The position numbers and the translations under genes are program-made. Positions 24,478 to 50,180 of a DNA stretch of 64,000 bases are shown piece after piece. Each line of letters starts with the position of its first letter. The stretch's first letter is position 1. The stretch lies in sequence record NC_052656.1. The stretch is one strand, 5' to 3'. Below the pieces are notes generated by a model. That model was not told where the DNA came from and did no database searches. It saw only the letters and a list, made by a program, of their open reading frames with translations. This stretch comes from Escherichia phage anhysbys.

Positions 24478-24749
24478 CCAACACAACATTAAGGGCACTG
24501 TGATTGATCGTCGTATCCTGTGCACAAGGTCTGTTCGAAAGACAGTGTTCTTAGTATTGTGTTGATCACACAAAGAGTCACCTGAAACTTGACCGGAGTA
24601 GGGTTGGATGGGGCAAAAGAAGAAGCGGCTCTCCCATCGACAGCAACGAAGAATAATATTTGACTTTGGTTTTGTATTATTTTAAGTTAGCTTACCGAAC
24701 GTAGGGCTAGTCACCCAATGGGATACTCGTCACTGTCCCACTCAATAAA

Positions 24750-24783
24750 ACTATTGACAACCAATAGTAAAATGTAGTATAGT
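24750..24783 (+). promoter_or_regulatory. promoter with conserved ACTATTGACAA -35 element
   Basis: TTGACA at 24754-24759, TATAGT 18 nt downstream; precedes tRNA-Gly. Confidence 0.55.
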
Positions 24784-24794
24784 AAAGATGTAGG

Positions 24795-24865
24795 GCGTTC
24801 TTGGTGTAGCGGTAGCATTCCGTCCTTCCAAGTCGGCGGCACGAGTTCGATCCTCGTAGAACGCT
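24795..24865 (+). tRNA. tRNA-Gly (anticodon TCC)
   Basis: acceptor GCGTTCT/AGAACGC, anticodon loop CTTCCAA, discriminator T, T-arm ACGAG-TTCGATC-CTCGT, CCA. Confidence 0.75.
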
Positions 24866-24966
24866 CCAAATTATTTAATAAAGGGTTGCCAGAAAACTTT
24901 CTCTTTTACTCATGGTTTTCTCCTTCTCTCACACCTCTTCTGGTTGCCCTTCATTAAATGATTTAT

Positions 24967-25039
24967 TGGTTTGTAGTGTAGTCCGGTAGCACACGACACT
25001 TTGACTGTCGTAGGTTTGGTTCAAATCCAGACAGACCAG
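24967..25039 (+). tRNA. tRNA-Gln (anticodon TTG)
   Basis: acceptor TGGTTTG/CAGACCA, anticodon arm CGACA-CTTTGAC-TGTCG, T-loop TTCAAAT, discriminator G, CCA. Confidence 0.8.
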
Positions 25040-25047
25040 CCATATAA

Positions 25048-25121
25048 CGGAATTTAGCTCAGTTTGGTAGAGCATACGCTTTGGGAGCGTAGGGTCGCAG
25101 GTTCGAATCCTGCAATTCCGA
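25048..25121 (+). tRNA. tRNA-Pro (anticodon TGG)
   Basis: acceptor CGGAATT/AATTCCG, D-arm GCTCAGTTTGGTAGAGC, anticodon loop TTTGGGA, T-arm GCAGG-TTCGAAT-CCTGC, CCA. Confidence 0.85.
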
Positions 25122-25130
25122 CCAATCAAA

Positions 25131-25201
25131 TGTTTCGTAGTTCAATGGTAGAACCCACGACTGATAATCGTGAGACACAAGTTCGATTCTTGTCGAAACA
25201 A
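25131..25201 (+). tRNA. tRNA-Ile (anticodon GAT)
   Basis: acceptor TGTTTCG/CGAAACA, anticodon arm CACGA-CTGATAA-TCGTG, T-arm ACAAG-TTCGATT-CTTGT, CCA. Confidence 0.8.
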
Positions 25202-25206
25202 CCAGT

Positions 25207-25276
25207 TTCCCGTTAGACTTACAGGATAAGAGTTCCACAACTTATTGTGATGCTGGTTCGAATCCAGCACGGGATA
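25207..25276 (+). ncRNA. tRNA-like element with 4-nt anticodon-position loop (pseudo-tRNA or structured RNA)
   Basis: perfect T-arm GCTGG-TTCGAAT-CCAGC and 6/7 acceptor pairing, but anticodon-position hairpin is CACAA-CTTA-TTGTG (tetraloop); no encoded CCA. Confidence 0.25.
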
Positions 25277-25282
25277 CATAAT

Positions 25283-25358
25283 AGCGGGATAGAGGAGTCT
25301 GGTCGTCCTCGCCAGTTTCATATGCTGGAGATCATCGGTTCAAATCCGATTCCCGCCT
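25283..25358 (+). tRNA. tRNA-Met (anticodon CAT), second copy; could be initiator or Ile2 type
   Basis: acceptor AGCGGGA/TCCCGCC with A1-C72 mismatch, D-arm GAGG...CCTC, anticodon loop TTCATAT, T-arm ATCGG-TTCAAAT-CCGAT, CCA. Confidence 0.7.
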
Positions 25359-25476
25359 CCAAATATCGCTTGCCAGCGGTATCTTTGAAGACCTTGCCTG
25401 GTTCCTTCTAAGATGGAGGGGTGCGACTCCTTAACGCACAATTATAATAAAGCATTTCAAATTAACAGTATTTATT

Positions 25477-35669: not shown

Positions 35670-36300
35670 TATTTACCAACAAATAGAAGCATACGAAAAT
35701 GCCATCTACTTAAATATAGGTGGCTTCCTTCAAGAATTAGTGGGGTTGCCAGTCTATGTTATGGATAAGCCATTCATTAAACCGGATACTCCTTACCTAG
35801 CACTACGTATTATCACTTCCAGCGATTCTGGAGGTTGGTCTTACCGAAGCTCTATTCAAAATGATATGTATTCCTACGAGATGGATAATACCTACGAGAT
35901 TGAACTTGTAGCCTATCGTGGAAGACCTACCACTTTGATGAGCTATGTTCTGGCTGCTCTCCGTGGTGCAGAGGAATTAAAATACAAACATCTCTATTCT
36001 AAAGGTCTTGGTTTTTTAGGAGCCTCCAATATAGCTCAAGCCAATACAATTGTAGACGGAGATAAGACTGAATTAAGAGCGCGTATGGTTATGACGTTCA
36101 ACACTCGTATGAGTATTGAAGATATTGCTACTACACCAATAGAAGCAATCAACATGCACATCCGTTCATTCAGAGATAGTTACAATGATCCTATCCCTTT
36201 AGATTTAATTCTAAACAGGGTTTATGCAATTACTTTGGTTCCAGGCGAATACTCGTCAGTCAATCAAAATGGATCATTATTTAACAACCCTACCGAATAA
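35641..36300 (+). CDS. tail terminator/neck protein (putative)
   Basis: 219-aa ORF; alternative TTG start at 35663 has AGGAGG 5 nt upstream. Confidence 0.4.
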   Translation: MEQKEETLANIYQQIEAYENAIYLNIGGFLQELVGLPVYVMDKPFIKPDTPYLALRIITSSDSGGWSYRSSIQNDMYSYEMDNTYEIELVAYRGRPTTLMSYVLAALRGAEELKYKHLYSKGLGFLGASNIAQANTIVDGDKTELRARMVMTFNTRMSIEDIATTPIEAINMHIRSFRDSYNDPIPLDLILNRVYAITLVPGEYSSVNQNGSLFNNPTE

Positions 36301-36334
36301 ACTCATTGGAATTAAGTTTCTAACAGGAGCATAA

Positions 36335-37708
36335 ATGGCAACTTTTCGTGAAAAGGTAGCAACCGTAACTTTACTGTATGGTGCTACATCAATTCGTGAA
36401 ACCCAGTTCGATATTCCCCTGATCCTTACAGGTCAGAACGTAACTGGCGAAGCGATTCAATATTACTCTTCTTCCGATGCACTTTTGGAAGCAGGTTATG
36501 GATTAAATGATCCAGCGTATATTATGGCAGTCAAACTGTTTAACGGTTTGTTCCCACCAGATCAAGTCATGGTTGGTAAGCGTGAAGTTACAAACTTTAC
36601 TCTAACTCCAATCGTAGAAGATAGTGCAACTTACACAATTACCATCAAAAATGGTACCAAGAAAAAAGAATTTAAATTCATTGCTGATGACACTGCAACT
36701 GCACAAGAGATTGTAGTTGGTCTGACTGAAATGATCAATGCAGATCTTGTTTATGGCCCACTGTTTACAGTAGCTAACAACGGCGCTGCAATGACTTTCA
36801 CTCCAGTAGAAGGTAAGTTTGGTTCTATTGACAGCACAGGTTTCACTCAAGAAACTGTCTATGCTAATGCTATTACGGAAGATATTGCTGCTCTGCATGA
36901 TATTGATAGTAGCTGGTTCTGGACCCTTTCAGATTCCCATGAAACAGAAGATGTTCTAGCTTTGGCTGCATGGGTAGAAGAGAATGATAAAGTTTACTTC
37001 TTCTCTAGCTCTGAACCTGGAATTAAAACGAAAGCAGAAGATAACGTTCTGGAACGACTGAATGACCTCGGTTATAATAACACTTGCTTTGCTTTGTGGA
37101 TGACCGATGCAGATTCTGTATTCCCAGAAGCGGCAGTTGTTGGTGCAATCTGTTCTCGTCAACCTGGTTTAACTACTCTTCACGGTAAAACACTGGTAGG
37201 TGTAGAGATCGAGAAACTGGATCAGACTTCGGAAAACAATATTGTTCAACAGAACGGTAACATCTATCGTAAAGAGCATGGAACTCTGTTCTATCGTGAT
37301 GGATTGATGGTTAGCGGTTTCTTTGTTGACTATGTTGTTCATGCTTTGTGGTTTAAAGCTCGCACAGAAGAATCACTGTTTACACTGTTTAAACAACAGT
37401 CTATGCTGGGTGGTGGTGTTCGTGCTACTTCAAACGGTCTGGCTTTGATTCGACAAGCTGTTCTGGCTAACCCGATCCAAGTAGGTATCCTCAACGGTTC
37501 CATCGCTAATGAAGTTGTTACTTCTGAAGAGACTGGTTTGCGTGTCGATCTGAAACCTATTGTTTATATTCCTTCTCGTGCCGATATGACTGATGCGCAA
37601 ATCAATGCTCGTCTGGTCGATGGGATGAAGATTGAATATGTTTACGCTGGCTTCTTCCATTACGTTAAAGTTCAGGTCAACGTCCTGACTAACCGTACTG
37701 CAAACTAA
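36335..37708 (+). CDS. tail sheath protein (putative)
   Basis: 457 aa followed by a 159-aa tube-sized protein; host-like codon usage; terminator downstream. Confidence 0.55.
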   Translation: MATFREKVATVTLLYGATSIRETQFDIPLILTGQNVTGEAIQYYSSSDALLEAGYGLNDPAYIMAVKLFNGLFPPDQVMVGKREVTNFTLTPIVEDSATYTITIKNGTKKKEFKFIADDTATAQEIVVGLTEMINADLVYGPLFTVANNGAAMTFTPVEGKFGSIDSTGFTQETVYANAITEDIAALHDIDSSWFWTLSDSHETEDVLALAAWVEENDKVYFFSSSEPGIKTKAEDNVLERLNDLGYNNTCFALWMTDADSVFPEAAVVGAICSRQPGLTTLHGKTLVGVEIEKLDQTSENNIVQQNGNIYRKEHGTLFYRDGLMVSGFFVDYVVHALWFKARTEESLFTLFKQQSMLGGGVRATSNGLALIRQAVLANPIQVGILNGSIANEVVTSEETGLRVDLKPIVYIPSRADMTDAQINARLVDGMKIEYVYAGFFHYVKVQVNVLTNRTAN

Positions 37709-37710
37709 TA

Positions 37711-37736
37711 CGGCGGGGGTTAAGCCCCCGTTATCA
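37711..37736 (+). terminator. hairpin terminator/attenuator
   Basis: CGGGGG-TTAAG-CCCCCG hairpin after sheath gene; weak U-run. Confidence 0.45.
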
Positions 37737-37754
37737 AAATAAAGAGGATCTATA

Positions 37755-38234
37755 ATGGATAAAATGCTTACTGGCGTAATGGCCTACGACCCATCTCAAG
37801 TTATCCTTTCATTAGGTGGTTGGGAACCGTGGGGTTTTGCGGCTGATACTAAAATCGTTATTGCTAAATCTAACGATATTATCAACCCTTATTCAGGGAC
37901 TGATGGTGACGTTTCACTAGCTTTGAGTCGTAACCGTTTGGGAACACTCACAATGTCTTTGCAACGCACATCTCCAGCTAACGAAGTACTTGCAACATAT
38001 GCACAAACAATGTATTCTACTCGTCAAGTAGCATTCAGCGTTTACTTGGAAGACCCACGTGGCTATTACATTAGCACGATTGGATGGATTCAAAGTCAGC
38101 CTGAAGATACTATTGGCGAAATGATTACAGAGAACCAATGGGTTATTGGTCTTAAAGATGCAAGCCTTCTGCGTAATGAAGTTGGTGTAGGTTTGAGCAC
38201 CCTTAACTCAATCTCTGCTCTGACAATTCAATAA
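37755..38234 (+). CDS. tail tube protein (putative)
   Basis: 159 aa between sheath and chaperone genes. Confidence 0.5.
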   Translation: MDKMLTGVMAYDPSQVILSLGGWEPWGFAADTKIVIAKSNDIINPYSGTDGDVSLALSRNRLGTLTMSLQRTSPANEVLATYAQTMYSTRQVAFSVYLEDPRGYYISTIGWIQSQPEDTIGEMITENQWVIGLKDASLLRNEVGVGLSTLNSISALTIQ

Positions 38235-38241
38235 TAAATAA

Positions 38242-38262
38242 AGGGCAGAAATGCCCTTTTTA
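38242..38262 (+). terminator. intrinsic terminator
   Basis: AGGGCA-GAAA-TGCCCT followed by TTTTTAT. Confidence 0.7.
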
Positions 38263-38279
38263 TCATTAGAGAGGAAAAT

Positions 38280-38762
38280 ATGTCACAAGAACAAGATAAC
38301 ACAATTCAAAAATATGCTCGACCAGAAGAAGTAGTTGAGATTCCGTTAGATGGAAACAGATCTGTTACTTTCCGTATTATGAAGTGGAGTCCATCTAAAG
38401 TGTTTGACAGGATTCCAGAATTGGGTAGTGTTCTGGTTGTTCCTATGACTATGTACAGCACAGCAACAATGTCCGCAGACGAAGACCTTGAGTCACGTAT
38501 TGCTATGGCACTGATCCAACTTTTTGCAGGTTTGGAAGAAAAGAATTTAACTGTCTTTTTGCGTAAAATTTTAGATGAGGTTTATACTCAAGACGGTTAT
38601 AACGTTGCAGAAAATTTTGATGAATTATTTATGGCTCACCCAGAACTAGTGTTAGATCTTACGGCTAAAGTTCTGGAGGTAAACTACGGCCCTTTTTTCA
38701 AACGAGGTTTCGGAAAACTGTTCACACAGCTTCAGGCGATGACGAGTTTAGCAGCAAATTAA
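38280..38762 (+). CDS. tail assembly chaperone (short, in-frame product)
   Basis: two-ORF arrangement between tube and tape-measure genes. Confidence 0.55.
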   Translation: MSQEQDNTIQKYARPEEVVEIPLDGNRSVTFRIMKWSPSKVFDRIPELGSVLVVPMTMYSTATMSADEDLESRIAMALIQLFAGLEEKNLTVFLRKILDEVYTQDGYNVAENFDELFMAHPELVLDLTAKVLEVNYGPFFKRGFGKLFTQLQAMTSLAAN

Positions 38763-39028
38763 CACCTGCGATTGAACATGCTATCGACACAGCAACGAAA
38801 ACCCTTACTTTGAAGTGGTATGAGGTTATTCTTTGCAAAGTCGTTAAAGATACCTCGGAAACACTGAAAACATTGGATAACTACGGTGTAGATTATCTTT
38901 TAAAACTATATGAGTATTTAACATACGAAGAGTATGTTGAAGCCATGTATGTTAAAGACACTTCAATAAAGAGAAAACATCAAAACCAGACAAATAAAAT
39001 GTCAGATTTGTTTAAGAAACTTGTTTAA
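38280..39028 (+). CDS. tail assembly chaperone, -1 frameshift fusion product
   Basis: slippery heptamer T_TTT_TTC at 38693-38699 in frame 0; the -1 frame is open from 38669 through ORF 38810-39028. Confidence 0.5.
38693..38699 (+). other. programmed -1 ribosomal frameshift slippery site (U UUU UUC)
   Basis: X_XXY_YYZ heptamer inside the overlap of the two chaperone frames. Confidence 0.5.
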
Positions 39029-39048
39029 TCCAACACGAGGAACATACT

Positions 39049-41037
39049 TTGTTAGAAATTAACGCCTCCAAAATTAGTAACGTGGTTACGTTTAAGGTGG
39101 ACAAGAACAGTCTCAAGGAAGCAAAAGATGCCGTGTTGAGTGTTCAGAAGTTTGCAAATAAAATGCAACCCACTATGAACATGACCAAGTTTAGACAACA
39201 AATGAAAGAGATTGAGCGTGAACTTAAGAAAGCTCAAACTCAAAGTCAAAAACCTATGCGAGCACCTACTCCCGCTGGAGCGGGTGCTCCTGTAGGTGGA
39301 TCTGGCAGACCAAGAACTCCTAAAACCCCGCAAGGAAGAGAAGAAGAAAAAGCTCGTAAAGCGGCTGAACGCGAAGCTAAAGCAGCAGCACGTAGGGAAG
39401 ACTTAGGTAATCTTCGTTTGCAAAACTTTAACTACCGAGCAAAAGCGTTTAGTAAAGCCAGCCCTGGCGCTATGCAAGAAGCTAGAGACGTTATGGGTAA
39501 AGCTGTAGAGCAATACAAAAAGGGTGAAATAACTCTTCAACGTATGAACCAAGCTCTTGCTCACCAGTTAGATGCCTTACGCAGATCTCATCGTGAAAAG
39601 AATGCTGAAATAGAAGACGAGGTTCGCGGTCGTCGCCGTATTCGTAGAGAGCTAGAAGCAGAAGCTAAAATGCGTATACGTATGCGAAATCGTGAACTTA
39701 GAGATATAGAACGCAACCGTAAGCGTGAATTAGCTCAACAAAAACGTGATCGTGATCGTCGATATGGACAATTAAAAGAAGGTGCAGCAGGTCTTAATCC
39801 ACGTATGATTGCATCCTCTTTGATAGGTGCTGGGCTGTTTGCAGGTGGTTCTGTAGTTGGTAACACTTTGATGAATACTAACGAAAGAATTAAAATGGTT
39901 AGTCGCGGTGCTGAAAACGTCCAAACAAATGCTAACTCTATTTTAACAATGACCGCATGGGGTGAACAAAACGGTGTAGACTCGGCAAATATTATTAAAG
40001 CAATAGATAACATTAAAGACGTTCGTGAACGTCTAGGTAATACCATGATGAACACCAAATGGAACGCAAAAGAAGGGAAATGGAAAGGTGGTGATAACGG
40101 TATTACTGATATTATGAATGCTTTTGGTTGGAACCCCGATCAAATAAAACATTTGCAAAATGACCCGTTAGCTTTTATCCAAGCCACTGTTAATGAAGGC
40201 GAACGTCGAGGCATGAACTCTGCTCAAATCGGGCGACTTCTTGAAAACCTTGGTGATGACCTTATGCACTACCAACGCATGTTTAGTAAAAATGGCGAAG
40301 GTTACAATGAAACATTGAAAATGCTTCAAAGAACAGGTGCAACATTAACTCAAGAACAAATAGATGCTTCTAAAGAGTTTACTCGTTTTGCTGCAACAGT
40401 TCAGCTTGTAGGTCAAGGTATGCAGAACCACTTCTTAGAGGGTTTTGTGAAAGCGTTACCTAAAGATGATTCTTGGTTGGATAACGTTAAAGTGCTAGAT
40501 CAGTTTGCCAAAGATTTAGGTGAAGAACTCGGTAAGACAACAGTTCAATTAGGAGGTTTTGCTAAAGAATTGGGAGATGGTTTCGGATCTTTTACCAATT
40601 GGCTTAAAGAAACATTCCCAGATACATTCGGAGACAACACAGATCCTAATAAATCTATGGCACAAAAAGCATACGAGGCAACGCAAAGTGGAGACAGCAA
40701 TCCTGTAGCAGATTGGTTGTATAATTTAACAGGTATTGATACACAAGATATTGGTCGTATGTGGAGAGGAGAACAAACAAGGACACGTGCTTTTGGATTT
40801 GGTAATCCTCTTGAAGATTTACGTGAATCAGCCTATACACCTAACGTAAGTTTGGCTCGTAATCAACCTGTTGTTGAGAATACGGTAGCAATACCAAGTG
40901 ATCTTATCAAAGTTACGATCAGTCCTTCTTCCGAGTTTGGAAATATTCTTGATGCAAGAATTCAAAATAGCGGAAATAGCATTTTCCAACGTTTATCTCT
41001 TTCAACTCTAAGTGGACAATCTAACACTGGTGGTTAA
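39049..41037 (+). CDS. tail tape measure protein
   Basis: 662 aa, TTG start; Arg/Lys/Glu-rich coiled-coil N-terminal third; position after frameshifting chaperone. Confidence 0.7.
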   Translation: MLEINASKISNVVTFKVDKNSLKEAKDAVLSVQKFANKMQPTMNMTKFRQQMKEIERELKKAQTQSQKPMRAPTPAGAGAPVGGSGRPRTPKTPQGREEEKARKAAEREAKAAARREDLGNLRLQNFNYRAKAFSKASPGAMQEARDVMGKAVEQYKKGEITLQRMNQALAHQLDALRRSHREKNAEIEDEVRGRRRIRRELEAEAKMRIRMRNRELRDIERNRKRELAQQKRDRDRRYGQLKEGAAGLNPRMIASSLIGAGLFAGGSVVGNTLMNTNERIKMVSRGAENVQTNANSILTMTAWGEQNGVDSANIIKAIDNIKDVRERLGNTMMNTKWNAKEGKWKGGDNGITDIMNAFGWNPDQIKHLQNDPLAFIQATVNEGERRGMNSAQIGRLLENLGDDLMHYQRMFSKNGEGYNETLKMLQRTGATLTQEQIDASKEFTRFAATVQLVGQGMQNHFLEGFVKALPKDDSWLDNVKVLDQFAKDLGEELGKTTVQLGGFAKELGDGFGSFTNWLKETFPDTFGDNTDPNKSMAQKAYEATQSGDSNPVADWLYNLTGIDTQDIGRMWRGEQTRTRAFGFGNPLEDLRESAYTPNVSLARNQPVVENTVAIPSDLIKVTISPSSEFGNILDARIQNSGNSIFQRLSLSTLSGQSNTGG

Positions 41038-41044
41038 TAAAATA

Positions 41045-41067
41045 CCTCGCTTCGGCGGGGTTTTTTC
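41045..41067 (+). terminator. intrinsic terminator
   Basis: CCTCGC-TTCG-GCGGGG followed by TTTTTT. Confidence 0.7.
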
Positions 41068-41075
41068 GTTTCCCT

Positions 41076-41106
41076 TGACACGAAGTTTCTATATGTGTTA
41101 CAATAA
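41076..41106 (+). promoter_or_regulatory. sigma70-like promoter (TTGACA-18-TACAAT)
   Basis: hexamers after the tape-measure terminator; leader contains GGAAGA...TCTTCC hairpin. Confidence 0.5.
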
Positions 41107-48026: not shown

Positions 48027-50180
48027 ATGAAACAAGCTATATTTACTGTCACGCGAGACAAGAGAGTAAATGCGAGTTCATTTAACTACACGACTGTTGA
48101 CGGAACAGCAGTCGCTGGTAGAGATTATATTGCAAAATCGGGAACACTTGTGTTCCCTGATGATGCTGATTCTGCTACTATTGTGGTTGAAGTATTTGAA
48201 CGACCAAAGAACTCAATAGATCTTAACTTCTCCCTCCAAGTTTCAGGGATTAGTCAAAATAACATGATGGTTGAAACAACCATCAATTGTATTATAACTA
48301 CTATCCAAGAAAATACTACTCCAATAACTTGGACTACAAAAGACGTTAAAATGTTCTCTCCTATGTATTGGACAATAGATTCTCAAGCAACGGAAAGTTG
48401 TTCTATTGTATCTCATGGAGACTCTTTTACTGCAAGATTTGTAAACAGAACAACAGCAGGTTTGGCAGGGGTTATCTGGAGCACAGTTGACAAATATGAC
48501 CATAAAGGTGTTGGGTATTTGCCTCACACAGATTTAAGTTCAGAGAAACTTTGGTTTAAAATGGAAATTAGTCAAAACATGCCAGGTTTTAAAGAAGAAC
48601 CTTTGGTGCCGACTTTGACTGTAACTCTCCTGGATAAAAGTGTTCATTATGTCAGTTTAGGATTCTACGCTTCAGATATTTCAGAAGATGGTAAAACAGC
48701 CACAATAAAGTTAGATTTTGGTAATATCTTTTCTGGCCCTAATAATGATATTCCTTTGGATATGAGTGCTGTAGATAATATTTTCTTCTCTTTGATTACA
48801 GCAAGGTATGAAGAAATAGAAGAGATTGTACCTATTGCCAGTCAAGAGGCTTGGTTTACTTTCACTCTTCTTGAACCTACTTCTGGTTACAGTATGATGA
48901 AAGTCAGCAACCTTGTCCAGCCTGAACATGATATTCACATGTGCACATCTTATGATGATATGTATAACCTGACTCCAGAGAGAGTTATTTATAATACATA
49001 TGCACTAGGTTATCGTGGAATGATTAACCATTACAACGGAATGTCTCACTATTATGAGTTCTCATGGAACGGAACATCTTGGGCTTTAAATAGATCTGTT
49101 TTCCTGAATCCGGCTACAGAAGCTTGGCTTAACAGTTTCCATTCTATAGCTAATGAAAATGGCTACACAATAATGAACTCTTTGAGTTTTGAGTTGATGA
49201 GCACAGTTTGTCCTGTTGAATGGGTCCAGCATGATTGGAACGATGCTCTTGCAGCAACAGGGTATAAGCCTCCTAGTTACGTGTTGTCTCCAACTATTGA
49301 CGAAGGTATGGAATATTTGCAAAATGTTATTAACAAAATAGCATCTATTTCTCAAGCTAATAACATTCCAGTCGTCATTCAAATTGGTGAACCTTGGTGG
49401 TGGTATAATACAGCAAGTAAAATGCCTTGTATATATGATTACACTACCAAACTGGCATTCAATACAGAAACAGGTTTATTTGCACAAGATGCAGGAACAA
49501 TAGATGATTATAAAACAGGAACGCCGTTTGACGAATACTATGCATTTTTGTCTCGTAAACTAGGATTAAGAGTTACAAAGTTTGCAACAGATACTAGAGC
49601 AACTTACCCAGGAGCCAAGGTAACATTGCTTCCGTTCTTGCCATCAATTATCGGCAACGGTTTGATGGAGAAAGTTAACTTCCCGTCTGATTACTACATT
49701 CCTGAAGCTTTTGATTTTTACTGTTCAGAGTGTTATGACTGGCTTCTGGAAGGTAAGATGATGAAAGCATTTGATGCAATTACTATACCACATGAAAAAT
49801 TAGGTTTTGAATATTCTGATATTCACTACCTTTCAGGTTTTGTTCCAGATGCTACTCTTGCACCTTTGTATGGCTTTGATCCTAAATCAAACTACCGCAC
49901 ATATCTTTGGAAGATGATTATAGGTAACATAGTGTTGAACGCCAATAAGTTTGACGGACTTACACAATATATATGGGCCTATCCTCAAATAATGCATGAT
50001 TCTATCACGGTAGTTAATTCTCAATCCCAAGTTTTCTATATGGGTAACGTGCCTTTGAACGTTTATTTACAGGATATCACTCTTAAACAGGTAAATGTTG
50101 AGATTGCCACCATAAGTGGAATTACATTAGCCACTAAATCTGGAGAAGATTTAGTAACAACACAAAAATTTTATATATAG
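48027..50180 (+). CDS. tail protein with N-terminal Calx-beta domain
   Basis: 717 aa; VTRDKRVNASSFNYTTVDGTAVAGRDYIAKSGTLVFPDDADSATIVVEV matches the Calx-beta consensus. Confidence 0.5.
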   Translation: MKQAIFTVTRDKRVNASSFNYTTVDGTAVAGRDYIAKSGTLVFPDDADSATIVVEVFERPKNSIDLNFSLQVSGISQNNMMVETTINCIITTIQENTTPITWTTKDVKMFSPMYWTIDSQATESCSIVSHGDSFTARFVNRTTAGLAGVIWSTVDKYDHKGVGYLPHTDLSSEKLWFKMEISQNMPGFKEEPLVPTLTVTLLDKSVHYVSLGFYASDISEDGKTATIKLDFGNIFSGPNNDIPLDMSAVDNIFFSLITARYEEIEEIVPIASQEAWFTFTLLEPTSGYSMMKVSNLVQPEHDIHMCTSYDDMYNLTPERVIYNTYALGYRGMINHYNGMSHYYEFSWNGTSWALNRSVFLNPATEAWLNSFHSIANENGYTIMNSLSFELMSTVCPVEWVQHDWNDALAATGYKPPSYVLSPTIDEGMEYLQNVINKIASISQANNIPVVIQIGEPWWWYNTASKMPCIYDYTTKLAFNTETGLFAQDAGTIDDYKTGTPFDEYYAFLSRKLGLRVTKFATDTRATYPGAKVTLLPFLPSIIGNGLMEKVNFPSDYYIPEAFDFYCSECYDWLLEGKMMKAFDAITIPHEKLGFEYSDIHYLSGFVPDATLAPLYGFDPKSNYRTYLWKMIIGNIVLNANKFDGLTQYIWAYPQIMHDSITVVNSQSQVFYMGNVPLNVYLQDITLKQVNVEIATISGITLATKSGEDLVTTQKFYI

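What the first reader, a model, noticed from the sequence alone, without database searches (positions are those of the whole stretch)
38669..38762. Programmed -1 frameshift in the tail assembly chaperone at U UUU UUC
Frame 0 of the chaperone contains ggc ccT TTT TTC aaa at 38691-38699; a -1 slip enters a frame open from 38669 through the 38810-39028 ORF, yielding a C-terminally extended product ahead of the tape-measure gene. This is the conserved long-tailed-phage G/GT-type mechanism.
Basis: partly seen in the sequence, partly recalled or inferred. Interest (0 to 1): 0.45.

Follow-up and report, generated by a model that had tools for sequence, protein, structure and literature searches.

The report
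Tail chaperone -1 frameshift site
A phAPEC8-like E. coli phage very probably makes a short and a long form of its tail-assembly chaperone by letting some ribosomes slip back one base at C_CCU_UUU_UUC; this is the ordinary lambda G/GT trick, conserved in this phage group but left out of the database annotations examined.

Summary
The 160-aa tail assembly chaperone gene (38280-38762; Pfam Phage_TAC_15) lies between the tail tube gene and the tape-measure gene. It contains ggC CCT TTT TTC aaa in frame. The -1 frame opens at 38669 and runs 119 codons to a stop at 39026-39028, 20 nt before the tape-measure start.

In-frame slippery heptamers are common in this window (67 in about 17,400 codons). 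Only this site leads into a long -1 frame; elsewhere -1 open runs inside genes reach at most 56 codons.

In 50 of 55 related loci checked (Stephanstirmvirinae, Vequintavirinae, Felix O1-like Moogle, an Aeromonas phage) T_TTT_TTC is in phase; one distant contig has T_TTT_TTA. The -1 frame continues 102-138 codons, except in one truncated contig. The preceding codon changes amino acid (P/C/S/D) but always ends in T. A Rheinheimera phage uses G_GGA_AAG nearby instead.

The extension shows a coding substitution pattern and has no conserved start codon or ribosome-binding site. No downstream RNA structure was found. An upstream GGAGG 13 nt from the site may stimulate slippage but is not universal.

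Verdict: a -1 programmed ribosomal frameshift giving a 249-aa G-T fusion, inferred from sequence and not shown experimentally. It is a new member of a known kind and of low interest.

The parts
38280..38762 (+). Tail assembly chaperone, short (gpG-like, TAC-N) form, 160 aa, translated in frame 0.
   Evidence: ORF. Pfam PF21822 Phage_TAC_15, E=1.3e-23, residues 29-143. phrog_3840 'tail assembly chaperone', E=2.8e-55. The start ATG has a GAGAGGA Shine-Dalgarno sequence (dG -6.4). In the AF2 model, confidence falls below 50 from residue 141, just after the slip codons F139-F140.
38675..38679 (+). Internal Shine-Dalgarno-like GGAGG (within CUGGAGGU). It lies 13 nt 5' of U_UUU_UUC and 10 nt 5' of C_CCU_UUU. 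Candidate 5' stimulator of the -1 shift (inferred).
   Evidence: Duplex with the 16S 3' end is -10.6 kcal/mol. That is stronger than the real RBSs nearby (-5.5 to -9.2) and beyond the 1st percentile of the background. The spacing falls in the 9-14 nt range reported for -1 stimulators (PMC5009743). It is present in most but not all relatives.
38690..38699 (+). Slippery decamer C_CCU_UUU_UUC, made of two overlapping in-phase heptamers (38690-38696 and 38693-38699). This is the site of the -1 shift.
   Evidence: T_TTT_TTC is in phase in 50 of 55 related loci. It is the nucleotide-conservation maximum of the locus (0.95). The only in-frame TTTTTTC in the 60 genes of the window is this one.
38699..39028 (+). 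-1 frame extension (T part, TAC-C): 109 codons plus stop. It has a variable linker followed by a conserved, roughly 65-aa helical domain.
   Evidence: Translation. phrog_16039, E=9.5e-45. Coding-type substitution pattern in the -1 phase, 0.36/0.21/0.58. Conserved across subfamilies. No Shine-Dalgarno sequence before any candidate start.
38280..39028 (+). Span encoding the predicted 249-aa G-T fusion: 38280-38699 in frame 0, then 38699-39025 in frame -1, with base 38699 read twice.
   Evidence: Conceptual translation. tblastn with the fusion recovers two pieces in two frames in 134 phage records at 80% coverage or more.
39049..41037 (+). Tape measure protein gene (TTG start, 662 aa). This is the presumed client of the chaperone.
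   Evidence: phrog_16051 'tail length tape measure protein', full length. GAGGAA Shine-Dalgarno sequence.
37755..38234 (+). Tail tube protein gene (context). This is the presumed partner of the T domain.
   Evidence: phrog_280 and Pfam KPP10_Orf10. Annotated as tail tube in SKA64 and 05F01.
36335..37708 (+). Tail sheath gene (context). It shows that this is a contractile-tailed phage.
   Evidence: phrog_205 'tail sheath', E=2.9e-100. DUF3383.

Best explanation
This is the tail assembly chaperone locus of a phAPEC8-like myovirus (genus Phapecoctavirus).

Most ribosomes read 38280-38762 and release a 160-aa chaperone (G-like, TAC-N). A minority slip back one nucleotide when tRNA-Pro/tRNA-Phe or tRNA-Phe/tRNA-Phe occupy the P and A sites on C_CCU_UUU_UUC (38690-38699). 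They then continue in the -1 frame to 39028. The product is a 249-aa protein with the same TAC domain, a flexible linker and a roughly 65-aa helical T domain.

By analogy with lambda gpG/gpGT, both forms coat the tape-measure protein, and the T domain recruits tail tube subunits. The fixed slip frequency sets the ratio of the two forms.

The slippery decamer alone is probably the essential signal. No 3' RNA structure is evident. [quoted passage not shown]

Shown here: the sequence anatomy, its conservation, the coding nature of the -1 frame, and the absence of an independent start. Inferred: that slippage happens, its efficiency, the role of the GGAGG, and the protein-protein contacts.
For: 1. 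Anatomy. The in-phase heptamers, the -1 frame open from 38669 to 39028 and the position between tube and tape-measure genes are read directly.

2. Uniqueness in the window. Only this site among 67 in-frame heptamers gives a long -1 extension. The maximum -1 open run elsewhere is 56 codons.

3. Conservation. T_TTT_TTC is in phase and followed by a 102-138 codon -1 ORF in 11 GenBank relatives from two subfamilies with about 30% protein identity. The same holds in 36 of 38 IMG/VR loci; of the other two, one is the window's own sequence and one, the most distant, has T_TTT_TTA on a contig that ends before the -1 stop. It also holds in phiTE, Murica and Aeromonas 4L372XY and in Felix O1-like Moogle, whose record carries a joined 'tape measure chaperone' CDS.

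4. Selection at the nucleotide level. The codon before the T run is CCT, TGT, TCT, GAT or AGT, so the amino acid varies but the third base is always T. The first Phe codon is always TTT. Nucleotide conservation peaks at the site. In IMG/VR the T6 form occurs in 14 contigs, and the T5 and T7 forms in none.

5. Slippery-site turnover. The Rheinheimera phage Barba16S homologue has lost the T run but has an in-phase G_GGA_AAG four codons downstream, followed by a 126-codon -1 ORF.

6. The extension is coding but has no start of its own. Substitutions follow a 3>1>2 codon-position pattern in the -1 phase. Conserved residues lie upstream of every candidate start. Hena1 and KB57 have no ATG/GTG/TTG until T residues 80-84. 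Anti-SD pairing before candidate starts is +0.4 to -3.7 kcal/mol, against -5.5 to -9.2 at nine of the ten real gene starts tested. Gene callers chose at least 7 different starts.

7. Domain boundary. The Pfam TAC domain ends at residue 143, and AF2 confidence collapses after residue 140.

8. Motif quality. Y_YYU_UUY heptamers fit the published rules for frameshift-prone motifs in E. coli (PMC4066793).

9. No single-ORF fused version exists among the homologues found in a 5.8-billion-protein database.
Against: - There is no experimental evidence (fusion protein, reporter assay, ribosome profiling) for this phage or, as far as six literature searches found, for any Stephanstirmvirinae or Vequintavirinae member.
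- No significant or conserved downstream stem-loop was found: z-scores run from +1.1 to -0.4, the consensus fold energy is -1 kcal/mol, and there is no Rfam match. Efficiency may therefore be low.
- The upstream Shine-Dalgarno-like element is confounded by the conserved L-E-V/I peptide. It is only modestly non-random per lineage (P 0.007-0.13) and is absent in FBKp34, phiTE, Aeromonas 4L372XY and Barba.
- Some relatives (PsgM04F, phiWec186, 05F01, FBKp34) have an ATG about 20 nt after the G stop, so extra independent expression of a T-only protein cannot be excluded there.
- The T-domain structure model is of low confidence (pLDDT 65), so its function rests on analogy.
Confidence: 0.87

Rival explanations
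1. Two separate genes. The downstream ORF is translated on its own, by de novo initiation or by termination-reinitiation after the chaperone stop codon, as a small independent protein. This is how most GenBank records annotate it. On this view the heptamer is incidental.
For: Many records annotate a separate 'hypothetical protein'. Several relatives have an ATG about 20 nt downstream of the G stop. CPT's Murica record annotates an RBS for the second ORF.
Against: - No start codon is conserved. Annotators and gene callers used at least 7 positions, including an ATT.
- In the window the first canonical start is TTG 38810, with +0.1 kcal/mol anti-SD pairing.
- Hena1 and KB57 have no start codon before T residues 80-84.
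- Conserved residues and a predicted helix lie upstream of the candidate starts.
- This model does not explain why the -1 frame always opens just before an invariant in-phase heptamer, nor why the wobble T is invariant.
Confidence: 0.05
2. Transcriptional slippage. RNA polymerase adds one extra U at the T6 run. Normal translation of that minority of mRNAs then yields the same G-T fusion.
For: The site is a homopolymer run. An mRNA with one extra U would encode exactly the same fusion protein (GPFFQTR...), so protein data cannot separate the two mechanisms (inference).
Against: - The run is only 6 T. Bacterial transcriptional slippage is described for runs of about 9 A or T (PMC5009743).
- The run length is fixed at exactly 6 in the relatives that have it and is never longer.
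- Barba phages replace the run with G_GGA_AAG, a classic ribosomal heptamer that is not a homopolymer.
Confidence: 0.05
3. Chance or artefact. The overlap is a sequencing or assembly indel in one gene, or a decaying pseudogene, and has no programmed recoding.
For: Homopolymer runs are typical sites of sequencing indels (general knowledge).
Against: The same two-frame architecture occurs in more than 130 independently sequenced phage genomes and in metagenomic contigs. Both frames show coding-type substitution patterns. No T5 or T7 variants exist in IMG/VR.
Confidence: 0.01

Closest known systems
Phage lambda gpG/gpGT tail assembly chaperones (-1 shift at G_GGA_AAG), and the conserved frameshift of long-tailed phages (Xu, Hendrix and Duda 2004, as summarised in PMC5009743)
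   Same: Two overlapping ORFs lie immediately upstream of the tape-measure gene. [quoted passage not shown] No strong 3' RNA structure is evident here (for lambda, the lack of such a requirement is my recollection). The products are chaperones rather than virion components (the lambda part is from PMC5009743).
   Different: The heptamer differs (C_CCU_UUU_UUC against G_GGA_AAG). This is a myovirus rather than a siphovirus. The Pfam family is different (Phage_TAC_15), and the T domain has no Pfam match. The ratio of products and the binding partners are untested here.
Felix O1-like phage Moogle 'tape measure chaperone' with annotated translational frameshift (KM236239; PMC4319497)
   Same: The site is homologous. 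The motif ...LEANFGSFF... carries GGAGG-N13-T_TTT_TTC and a -1 extension ending at the tape-measure gene. The record carries a joined (j2) CDS.
   Different: It belongs to a different subfamily (Ounavirinae), has a shorter chaperone (133 aa) and is highly divergent in sequence. The frameshift there is also an annotation, not an experiment.
Vandenendeviridae (Pseudomonas phage Adele) and Andersonviridae TAC loci, with a proposed conserved -1 PRF at an invariant GTTTTT motif (PMC12846349, Dec 2025)
   Same: The argument and architecture are the same: TAC-N with a poly-T slippery motif near its 3' end, and an uninterrupted -1 frame up to the tape-measure gene that is routinely mis-annotated as a separate hypothetical protein. 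The authors place these families as relatives of Vequintavirinae and Stephanstirmvirinae.
   Different: That paper did not analyse the Stephanstirmvirinae or Vequintavirinae loci. In Stephanstirmvirinae the base before the T run is C, not G (CCCTTTTTTC), which creates a second overlapping heptamer.
Phage P2 E / E+E' (-1 frameshift in the FETUD tail operon; Christie et al. 2002, recalled from memory and not checked here)
   Same: It is a contractile-tailed phage in which a -1 slip on a T-rich heptamer near the end of the chaperone gene extends it ahead of the tape-measure gene.
   Different: The protein families are unrelated at sequence level. The P2 shift was shown experimentally.
E. coli dnaX and IS3/IS911-type -1 frameshift cassettes
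   Same: A slippery heptamer has a Shine-Dalgarno-like element 9-14 nt upstream (PMC5009743). In the window, GGAGG sits at 10 and 13 nt.
   Different: dnaX and the IS elements also use a 3' hairpin or pseudoknot and reach high efficiency. No such structure is detectable here, and the Shine-Dalgarno-like element is not universal among relatives.

Membership tests
G/GT-type tail assembly chaperone frameshift (Xu-Hendrix-Duda class) | A pair of overlapping ORFs lies between the major tail/tube gene and the tape-measure gene. | tested here: met
   Order is sheath 36335-37708, tube 37755-38234, ORF1 38280-38762, -1 ORF to 39028, tape measure 39049-41037.
G/GT-type tail assembly chaperone frameshift (Xu-Hendrix-Duda class) | The upstream ORF encodes a tail assembly chaperone. 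| tested here: met
   [not shown]
G/GT-type tail assembly chaperone frameshift (Xu-Hendrix-Duda class) | A slippery sequence lies in the 0-frame phase inside the overlap between the two frames. | tested here: met
   C_CCU_UUU at 38690 and U_UUU_UUC at 38693, within the overlap 38669-38762. They are the only in-phase heptamers in that overlap.
G/GT-type tail assembly chaperone frameshift (Xu-Hendrix-Duda class) | The second ORF lacks its own conserved start codon and RBS. | tested here: met
   no Shine-Dalgarno sequence, variable or absent start codons, and conserved sequence upstream of the candidate starts.
G/GT-type tail assembly chaperone frameshift (Xu-Hendrix-Duda class) | The architecture and slip site are conserved in divergent relatives. 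| tested here: met
   Of the 55 related loci checked, 50 keep T_TTT_TTC, one has T_TTT_TTA and one (Barba) has G_GGA_AAG nearby. All have the -1 frame open beyond the G stop.
G/GT-type tail assembly chaperone frameshift (Xu-Hendrix-Duda class) | The fusion protein is actually produced at a low fixed ratio, and both forms are needed for tail assembly. | not testable with these tools
   This needs proteomics, reporter assays or genetics. No publication for this clade was found.
G/GT-type tail assembly chaperone frameshift (Xu-Hendrix-Duda class) | The G part binds the tape-measure protein and the T part binds the tail tube protein. | not testable with these tools
   The T-domain model has low confidence (pLDDT 65, pTM 0.35). 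No complex modelling was available.
dnaX/IS-type stimulated -1 PRF cassette | A Shine-Dalgarno-like element lies 9-14 nt 5' of the shift site. | tested here: inconclusive
   GGAGG at 38675-38679 has spacings of 13 and 10 nt and dG -10.6. In 25 of 26 contexts pairing is stronger than the mean of synonymous-codon shuffles, but each P is only 0.007-0.13. The element is absent in FBKp34, phiTE, Aeromonas 4L372XY and Barba.
dnaX/IS-type stimulated -1 PRF cassette | A stable 3' hairpin or pseudoknot lies 5-9 nt downstream. | tested here: not met
   Fold z-scores of +0.81, +0.13 and -0.40 in the window and similar values in relatives. Consensus structure energy is -1.02 kcal/mol with no covariation near the site. 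No Rfam match. Pseudoknots were not searched explicitly.
Transcriptional slippage sites | A homopolymer run of about 9 or more A or T. | tested here: not met
   The run is exactly T6 in the window and in the relatives that keep it. The threshold is taken from PMC5009743.

The most novel reading that the evidence does not exclude
The most novel reading not excluded is that a fixed cassette acts as a structure-free, dnaX-like 5'-stimulated frameshift signal. The cassette would be a Shine-Dalgarno-like GGAGG, a 13-nt spacer and U_UUU_UUC. It is shared by Felix O1-like, rV5-like and phi92/phAPEC8-like phages.

In Stephanstirmvirinae the added C_CCU_UUU heptamer would give two consecutive chances to slip. 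Lineages that lost the GGAGG (phiTE, FBKp34, the Aeromonas phage) would then have retuned their G:GT ratio. That would make this clade a natural series for studying how frameshift efficiency is set without any 3' RNA structure.
Probability: 0.3. Interest if true: 0.35.

Novelty: new member of a known kind. Interest (0 to 1): 0.2.

Why it matters
The main value is for annotation. In every Stephanstirmvirinae and Vequintavirinae record inspected, the long chaperone form is missing. Its C-terminal part is either unannotated or called a stand-alone 'hypothetical protein' with an arbitrary start. A joined CDS (38280..38699, 38699..39028) would correct this across more than 130 genomes, several of which belong to therapy-candidate phages.

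Biologically it extends a textbook recoding event to another large group of myoviruses. It also shows that the slip site is homologous from Felix O1-like to phi92-like phages, with one documented case of slippery-site replacement in Barba phages. It does not open a new question.

Tried and rejected
- **Downstream stimulatory structure.** Single-sequence folds of 61, 101 and 148 nt after the site, folds of four relatives and an RNAalifold consensus of seven Stephanstirmvirinae all gave nothing above shuffled controls. An Rfam scan of 38200-39200 gave only a sub-threshold SraG match on the other strand.
- **Single-ORF (Rosetta-stone) fusions.** Two searches of the 5.8-billion-protein database found none. 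With the 249-aa fusion as query, all 41 hits were chaperones of about 160 aa. With the T part as query, all 18 hits were fragments of 64-85 aa.
- **Solved structures by sequence.** No match.
- **T-domain model.** Too poor to search with.
- **Literature.** Six searches found no paper describing this frameshift in Phapecoctavirus, phi92, rV5 or PVP-SE1-type phages. The rV5 genome and proteome paper does not contain the words frameshift, chaperone or tape measure. The Vladimirov et al. 2022 paper on T4-like chaperones is not held.
- **Other heptamers.** The T_TTT_TTA at 19707 on the minus strand, with a 44-codon -1 run, was looked at and judged to be chance.

Full report
**What the window is**

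The region 36300-41100 is 98-99% identical to about 60 phAPEC8-like phages of the genus Phapecoctavirus, subfamily Stephanstirmvirinae. Examples are EF1-1, ZCKP1, SKA64 and ESCO13. It is about 74% identical to phi92-like phages.

The local gene order is as follows:

| Coordinates | Gene | Support |
|---|---|---|
| 36335-37708 | tail sheath | phrog_205 |
| 37755-38234 | tail tube | phrog_280 |
| 38280-38762 | 160-aa ORF, tail assembly chaperone | Pfam Phage_TAC_15, 84 bits, residues 29-143; phrog_3840 |
| 38669-39028 | stretch open only in the -1 frame | see below |
| 39049-41037 | tape-measure protein | phrog_16051 |

**Checking the observation**

Reading the sequence directly gives ggc cct ttt ttc aaa in the chaperone's frame. 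U_UUU_UUC therefore lies at 38693-38699 in the X_XXY_YYZ phase.

A slip on either gives the same product, ...NYGPFF-QTRFRK...

The -1 frame has a stop at 38666-38668. It is then open for 119 codons to the stop at 39026-39028, 20 nt before the tape-measure start. The +1 frame is open for only 7 codons. The predicted fusion protein is 249 aa.

**Is it more than chance?**

A slippery heptamer by itself is not unusual. Sixty putative genes of the window contain 67 in-phase X_XXY_YYZ motifs, or 3.9 per 1000 codons.

The -1 frame of those genes has 10.7% stop codons, a mean open run of 8 codons and a maximum of 56. A 119-codon run has a probability of about 1.5e-6 per position.

Of the 67 heptamers, only the two at 38690 and 38693 lead into a long -1 frame: 109-110 codons, reaching 266 nt past the 0-frame stop.

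**Comparative evidence**

- Eleven GenBank relatives were examined. These are phi92, KP2025, PsgM04F, phiWec186, 05F01 and FBKp34 in Stephanstirmvirinae, and FV3, FENT2, Hena1, KB57 and SSE121 in Vequintavirinae. Protein identity to the window falls as low as about 30%.
- All eleven keep T_TTT_TTC in phase. In each, the -1 frame opens 84-138 nt before the chaperone stop and closes 8-54 nt before the tape-measure start, apart from one probably mis-annotated start. The +1 frame is short in all of them.
- Of 38 IMG/VR loci, 37 keep T_TTT_TTC, including one that is the window's own sequence. The most distant locus has T_TTT_TTA, and its contig ends before the -1 stop. In the others the -1 frame runs 248-278 nt past the G stop.
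- phiTE, Murica and Aeromonas phage 4L372XY keep the site as well.
- The codon preceding the T run encodes Pro, Cys, Ser (both TCT and AGT) or Asp in different lineages, yet it always ends in T. The first Phe codon is always TTT. This is selection on the nucleotide sequence, not on the protein.
- Nucleotide conservation among seven Stephanstirmvirinae peaks at 0.95 around 38685-38715, the highest value in the locus.
- In IMG/VR the T6 form of the site occurs in 14 contigs. The T5 and T7 forms occur in none.
- The Rheinheimera phage Barba16S homologue has lost the T run. It has an in-phase G_GGA_AAG four codons downstream, followed by a 126-codon -1 frame that encodes a recognisably homologous T domain. 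The slippery site has been replaced while the recoding has been kept.

**The extension is coding but has no start of its own**

Downstream of the chaperone stop, pairwise differences by codon position in the -1 phase are 0.36, 0.21 and 0.58. The chaperone's N-terminal part gives 0.31, 0.19 and 0.50.

The -1 translation aligns across both subfamilies. After the slip comes RFR(K/R), then a linker of variable length rich in G, S, T, P and D, then a conserved domain of about 65 aa.

Conserved residues lie upstream of every candidate start codon. Hena1 and KB57 have no ATG, GTG or TTG until T residues 80-84.

In the window the first canonical start is TTG 38810. Anti-Shine-Dalgarno pairing before the candidate starts is +0.4 to -3.7 kcal/mol, against -5.5 to -9.2 at nine of the ten neighbouring gene starts tested.

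Gene callers and annotators placed the start of the second ORF at seven or more different positions, including an ATT, or omitted the ORF altogether.

Neither database search found a version with both halves in one ORF.

**Domain boundary**

The Pfam domain ends at residue 143. In an AlphaFold2 model of the short form (mean pLDDT 73.7), confidence falls below 50 from residue 141, directly after the slip codons F139-F140. The shift therefore occurs exactly at the end of the folded chaperone domain.

**Stimulatory elements**

No downstream stem-loop stands out. Fold z-scores are +0.81, +0.13 and -0.40 in the window and similar in relatives. The consensus fold has -1.02 kcal/mol and no covariation near the site. 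There is no Rfam match. Pseudoknots were not searched explicitly.

Upstream, CUGGAGGU (GGAGG at 38675-38679) pairs with the 16S 3' end at -10.6 kcal/mol. That is stronger than the true ribosome-binding sites nearby. It lies 13 nt from U_UUU_UUC and 10 nt from C_CCU_UUU, within the 9-14 nt range reported for -1 stimulators (PMC5009743).

Evidence for a functional role of this element:
- phi92-like phages have GAGGUGA at the same place, and rV5-like phages have GGAGGU.
- Felix O1-like Moogle has GGAGG with the identical 13-nt spacing.
- The Glu codon here is GAG in all but one of the lineages examined that keep the Glu (phiTE has GAA), although GAG makes up only 26% of Glu codons in the window.
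- In 25 of 26 contexts the pairing is stronger than the mean of synonymous-codon shuffles.

Evidence against:
- Each individual P value is only 0.007-0.13.
- The peptide L-E-V/I is itself conserved, which confounds the test.
- FBKp34, phiTE, Aeromonas 4L372XY and Barba lack the element.

I regard it as a probable but unproven and dispensable enhancer.

The motif itself fits the published rules for shift-prone heptamers in E. coli: UUN in the A site, and all pyrimidines (PMC4066793).

**Mechanism**

The best-supported model is a -1 programmed ribosomal frameshift at 38690-38699. It yields a major 160-aa chaperone and a minor 249-aa chaperone-T fusion.

By analogy with lambda, gpG and the G part of gpGT bind the tape-measure protein, and the T domain recruits the tube subunit. 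The lambda G:GT ratio is about 30:1 (PMC5009743). These functional steps are inferred, not shown.

**Rival explanations**

- *Independent translation of the second ORF* is disfavoured by the lack of any conserved start codon or RBS.
- *Transcriptional slippage* is disfavoured because the run is only T6, is never longer, and is replaced by a non-homopolymeric heptamer in Barba phages.
- *Sequencing artefact* is excluded by conservation in more than 130 genomes.

**Comparison with what is known**

The kind is textbook: lambda G/GT, and the conserved frameshift of long-tailed phages.

Homologous sites have been noted before. The Moogle genome, a Felix O1-like phage, carries a joined 'tape measure chaperone' CDS. 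A December 2025 paper argues for a conserved -1 PRF at an invariant GTTTTT motif in Vandenendeviridae and Andersonviridae, and describes these as relatives of Vequintavirinae and Stephanstirmvirinae (PMC12846349).

I found no paper or GenBank record that annotates the frameshift in Phapecoctavirus, phi92-like or rV5-like phages. This holds even for CPT's Murica record.

The finding is therefore a new, un-annotated member of a well-known kind.

**Verdict**

- Novelty is low and interest is 0.2.
- The main practical consequence is a correction to the annotation of this phage group.

Noticed in passing
window 38240-38259: A terminator-like hairpin (AAAGGGCAGAAATGCCCTTT followed by a T-rich tail) lies between the tail tube gene and the chaperone gene. 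Relatives annotate a terminator at the same place (FBKp34, Murica). It may lower transcription of the chaperone and tape-measure genes relative to the abundant tube protein.
   Followed up: partly
window 23439-25361: There is a cluster of 10 phage tRNA genes: Met x2, Arg-UCU, Ser-GCU, Asn, Thr-UGU, Gly-UCC, Gln-UUG, Pro-UGG and Ile-GAU. tRNA-Pro(UGG) could read the CCU of the C_CCU_UUU heptamer. There is no phage tRNA-Phe.
   Followed up: no
L054 (Rheinheimera phage Barba16S, MK719726) 1218-1224: The homologous chaperone has lost the T6 run (..HYGCLTSGKSF..). It has an in-phase G_GGA_AAG, the lambda-type heptamer, four codons downstream, followed by a 126-codon -1 frame encoding a homologous T domain. 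This is an example of slippery-site turnover.
   Followed up: partly
L053 (Citrobacter phage Moogle, KM236239) 48626-49263, minus strand: This Felix O1-like phage has the same GGAGG-N13-T_TTT_TTC cassette in the motif LEANFGSFF, and a joined CDS in its record. The site is therefore homologous across Ounavirinae, Vequintavirinae and Stephanstirmvirinae.
   Followed up: yes
window 38771-38810, and loci L003-L014: GenBank records disagree on the second ORF. It is absent in EF1-1, SKA64 and Hena1, starts at an ATT in ESCO13, and starts at TTG or ATG at different positions elsewhere. The PsgM04F tape-measure start is annotated 147 nt downstream of the -1 stop, against 8-54 nt in the others, and is probably mis-called.
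   Followed up: partly
window 19701-19707, minus strand: An in-phase T_TTT_TTA lies 7 codons before the stop of ORF 19686-20156 (-). It has a 44-codon -1 run extending 119 nt past the stop. The next gene (19319-19675) has its own strong GAGGAGG RBS and is in a different frame. Judged to be chance.
   Followed up: partly
[not shown]
   Followed up: no
L013, L040-L043 (KB57-like Mydovirus loci): The Glu of L-E-V/I is replaced by Lys or Arg (CTGAAGAT or CTGAGGAT), which weakens the Shine-Dalgarno-like element at the usual 13-nt spacing. A GGAGGT appears 9 nt further upstream, at about 22-nt spacing and outside the 9-14 nt range. Its significance is unknown.
   Followed up: no
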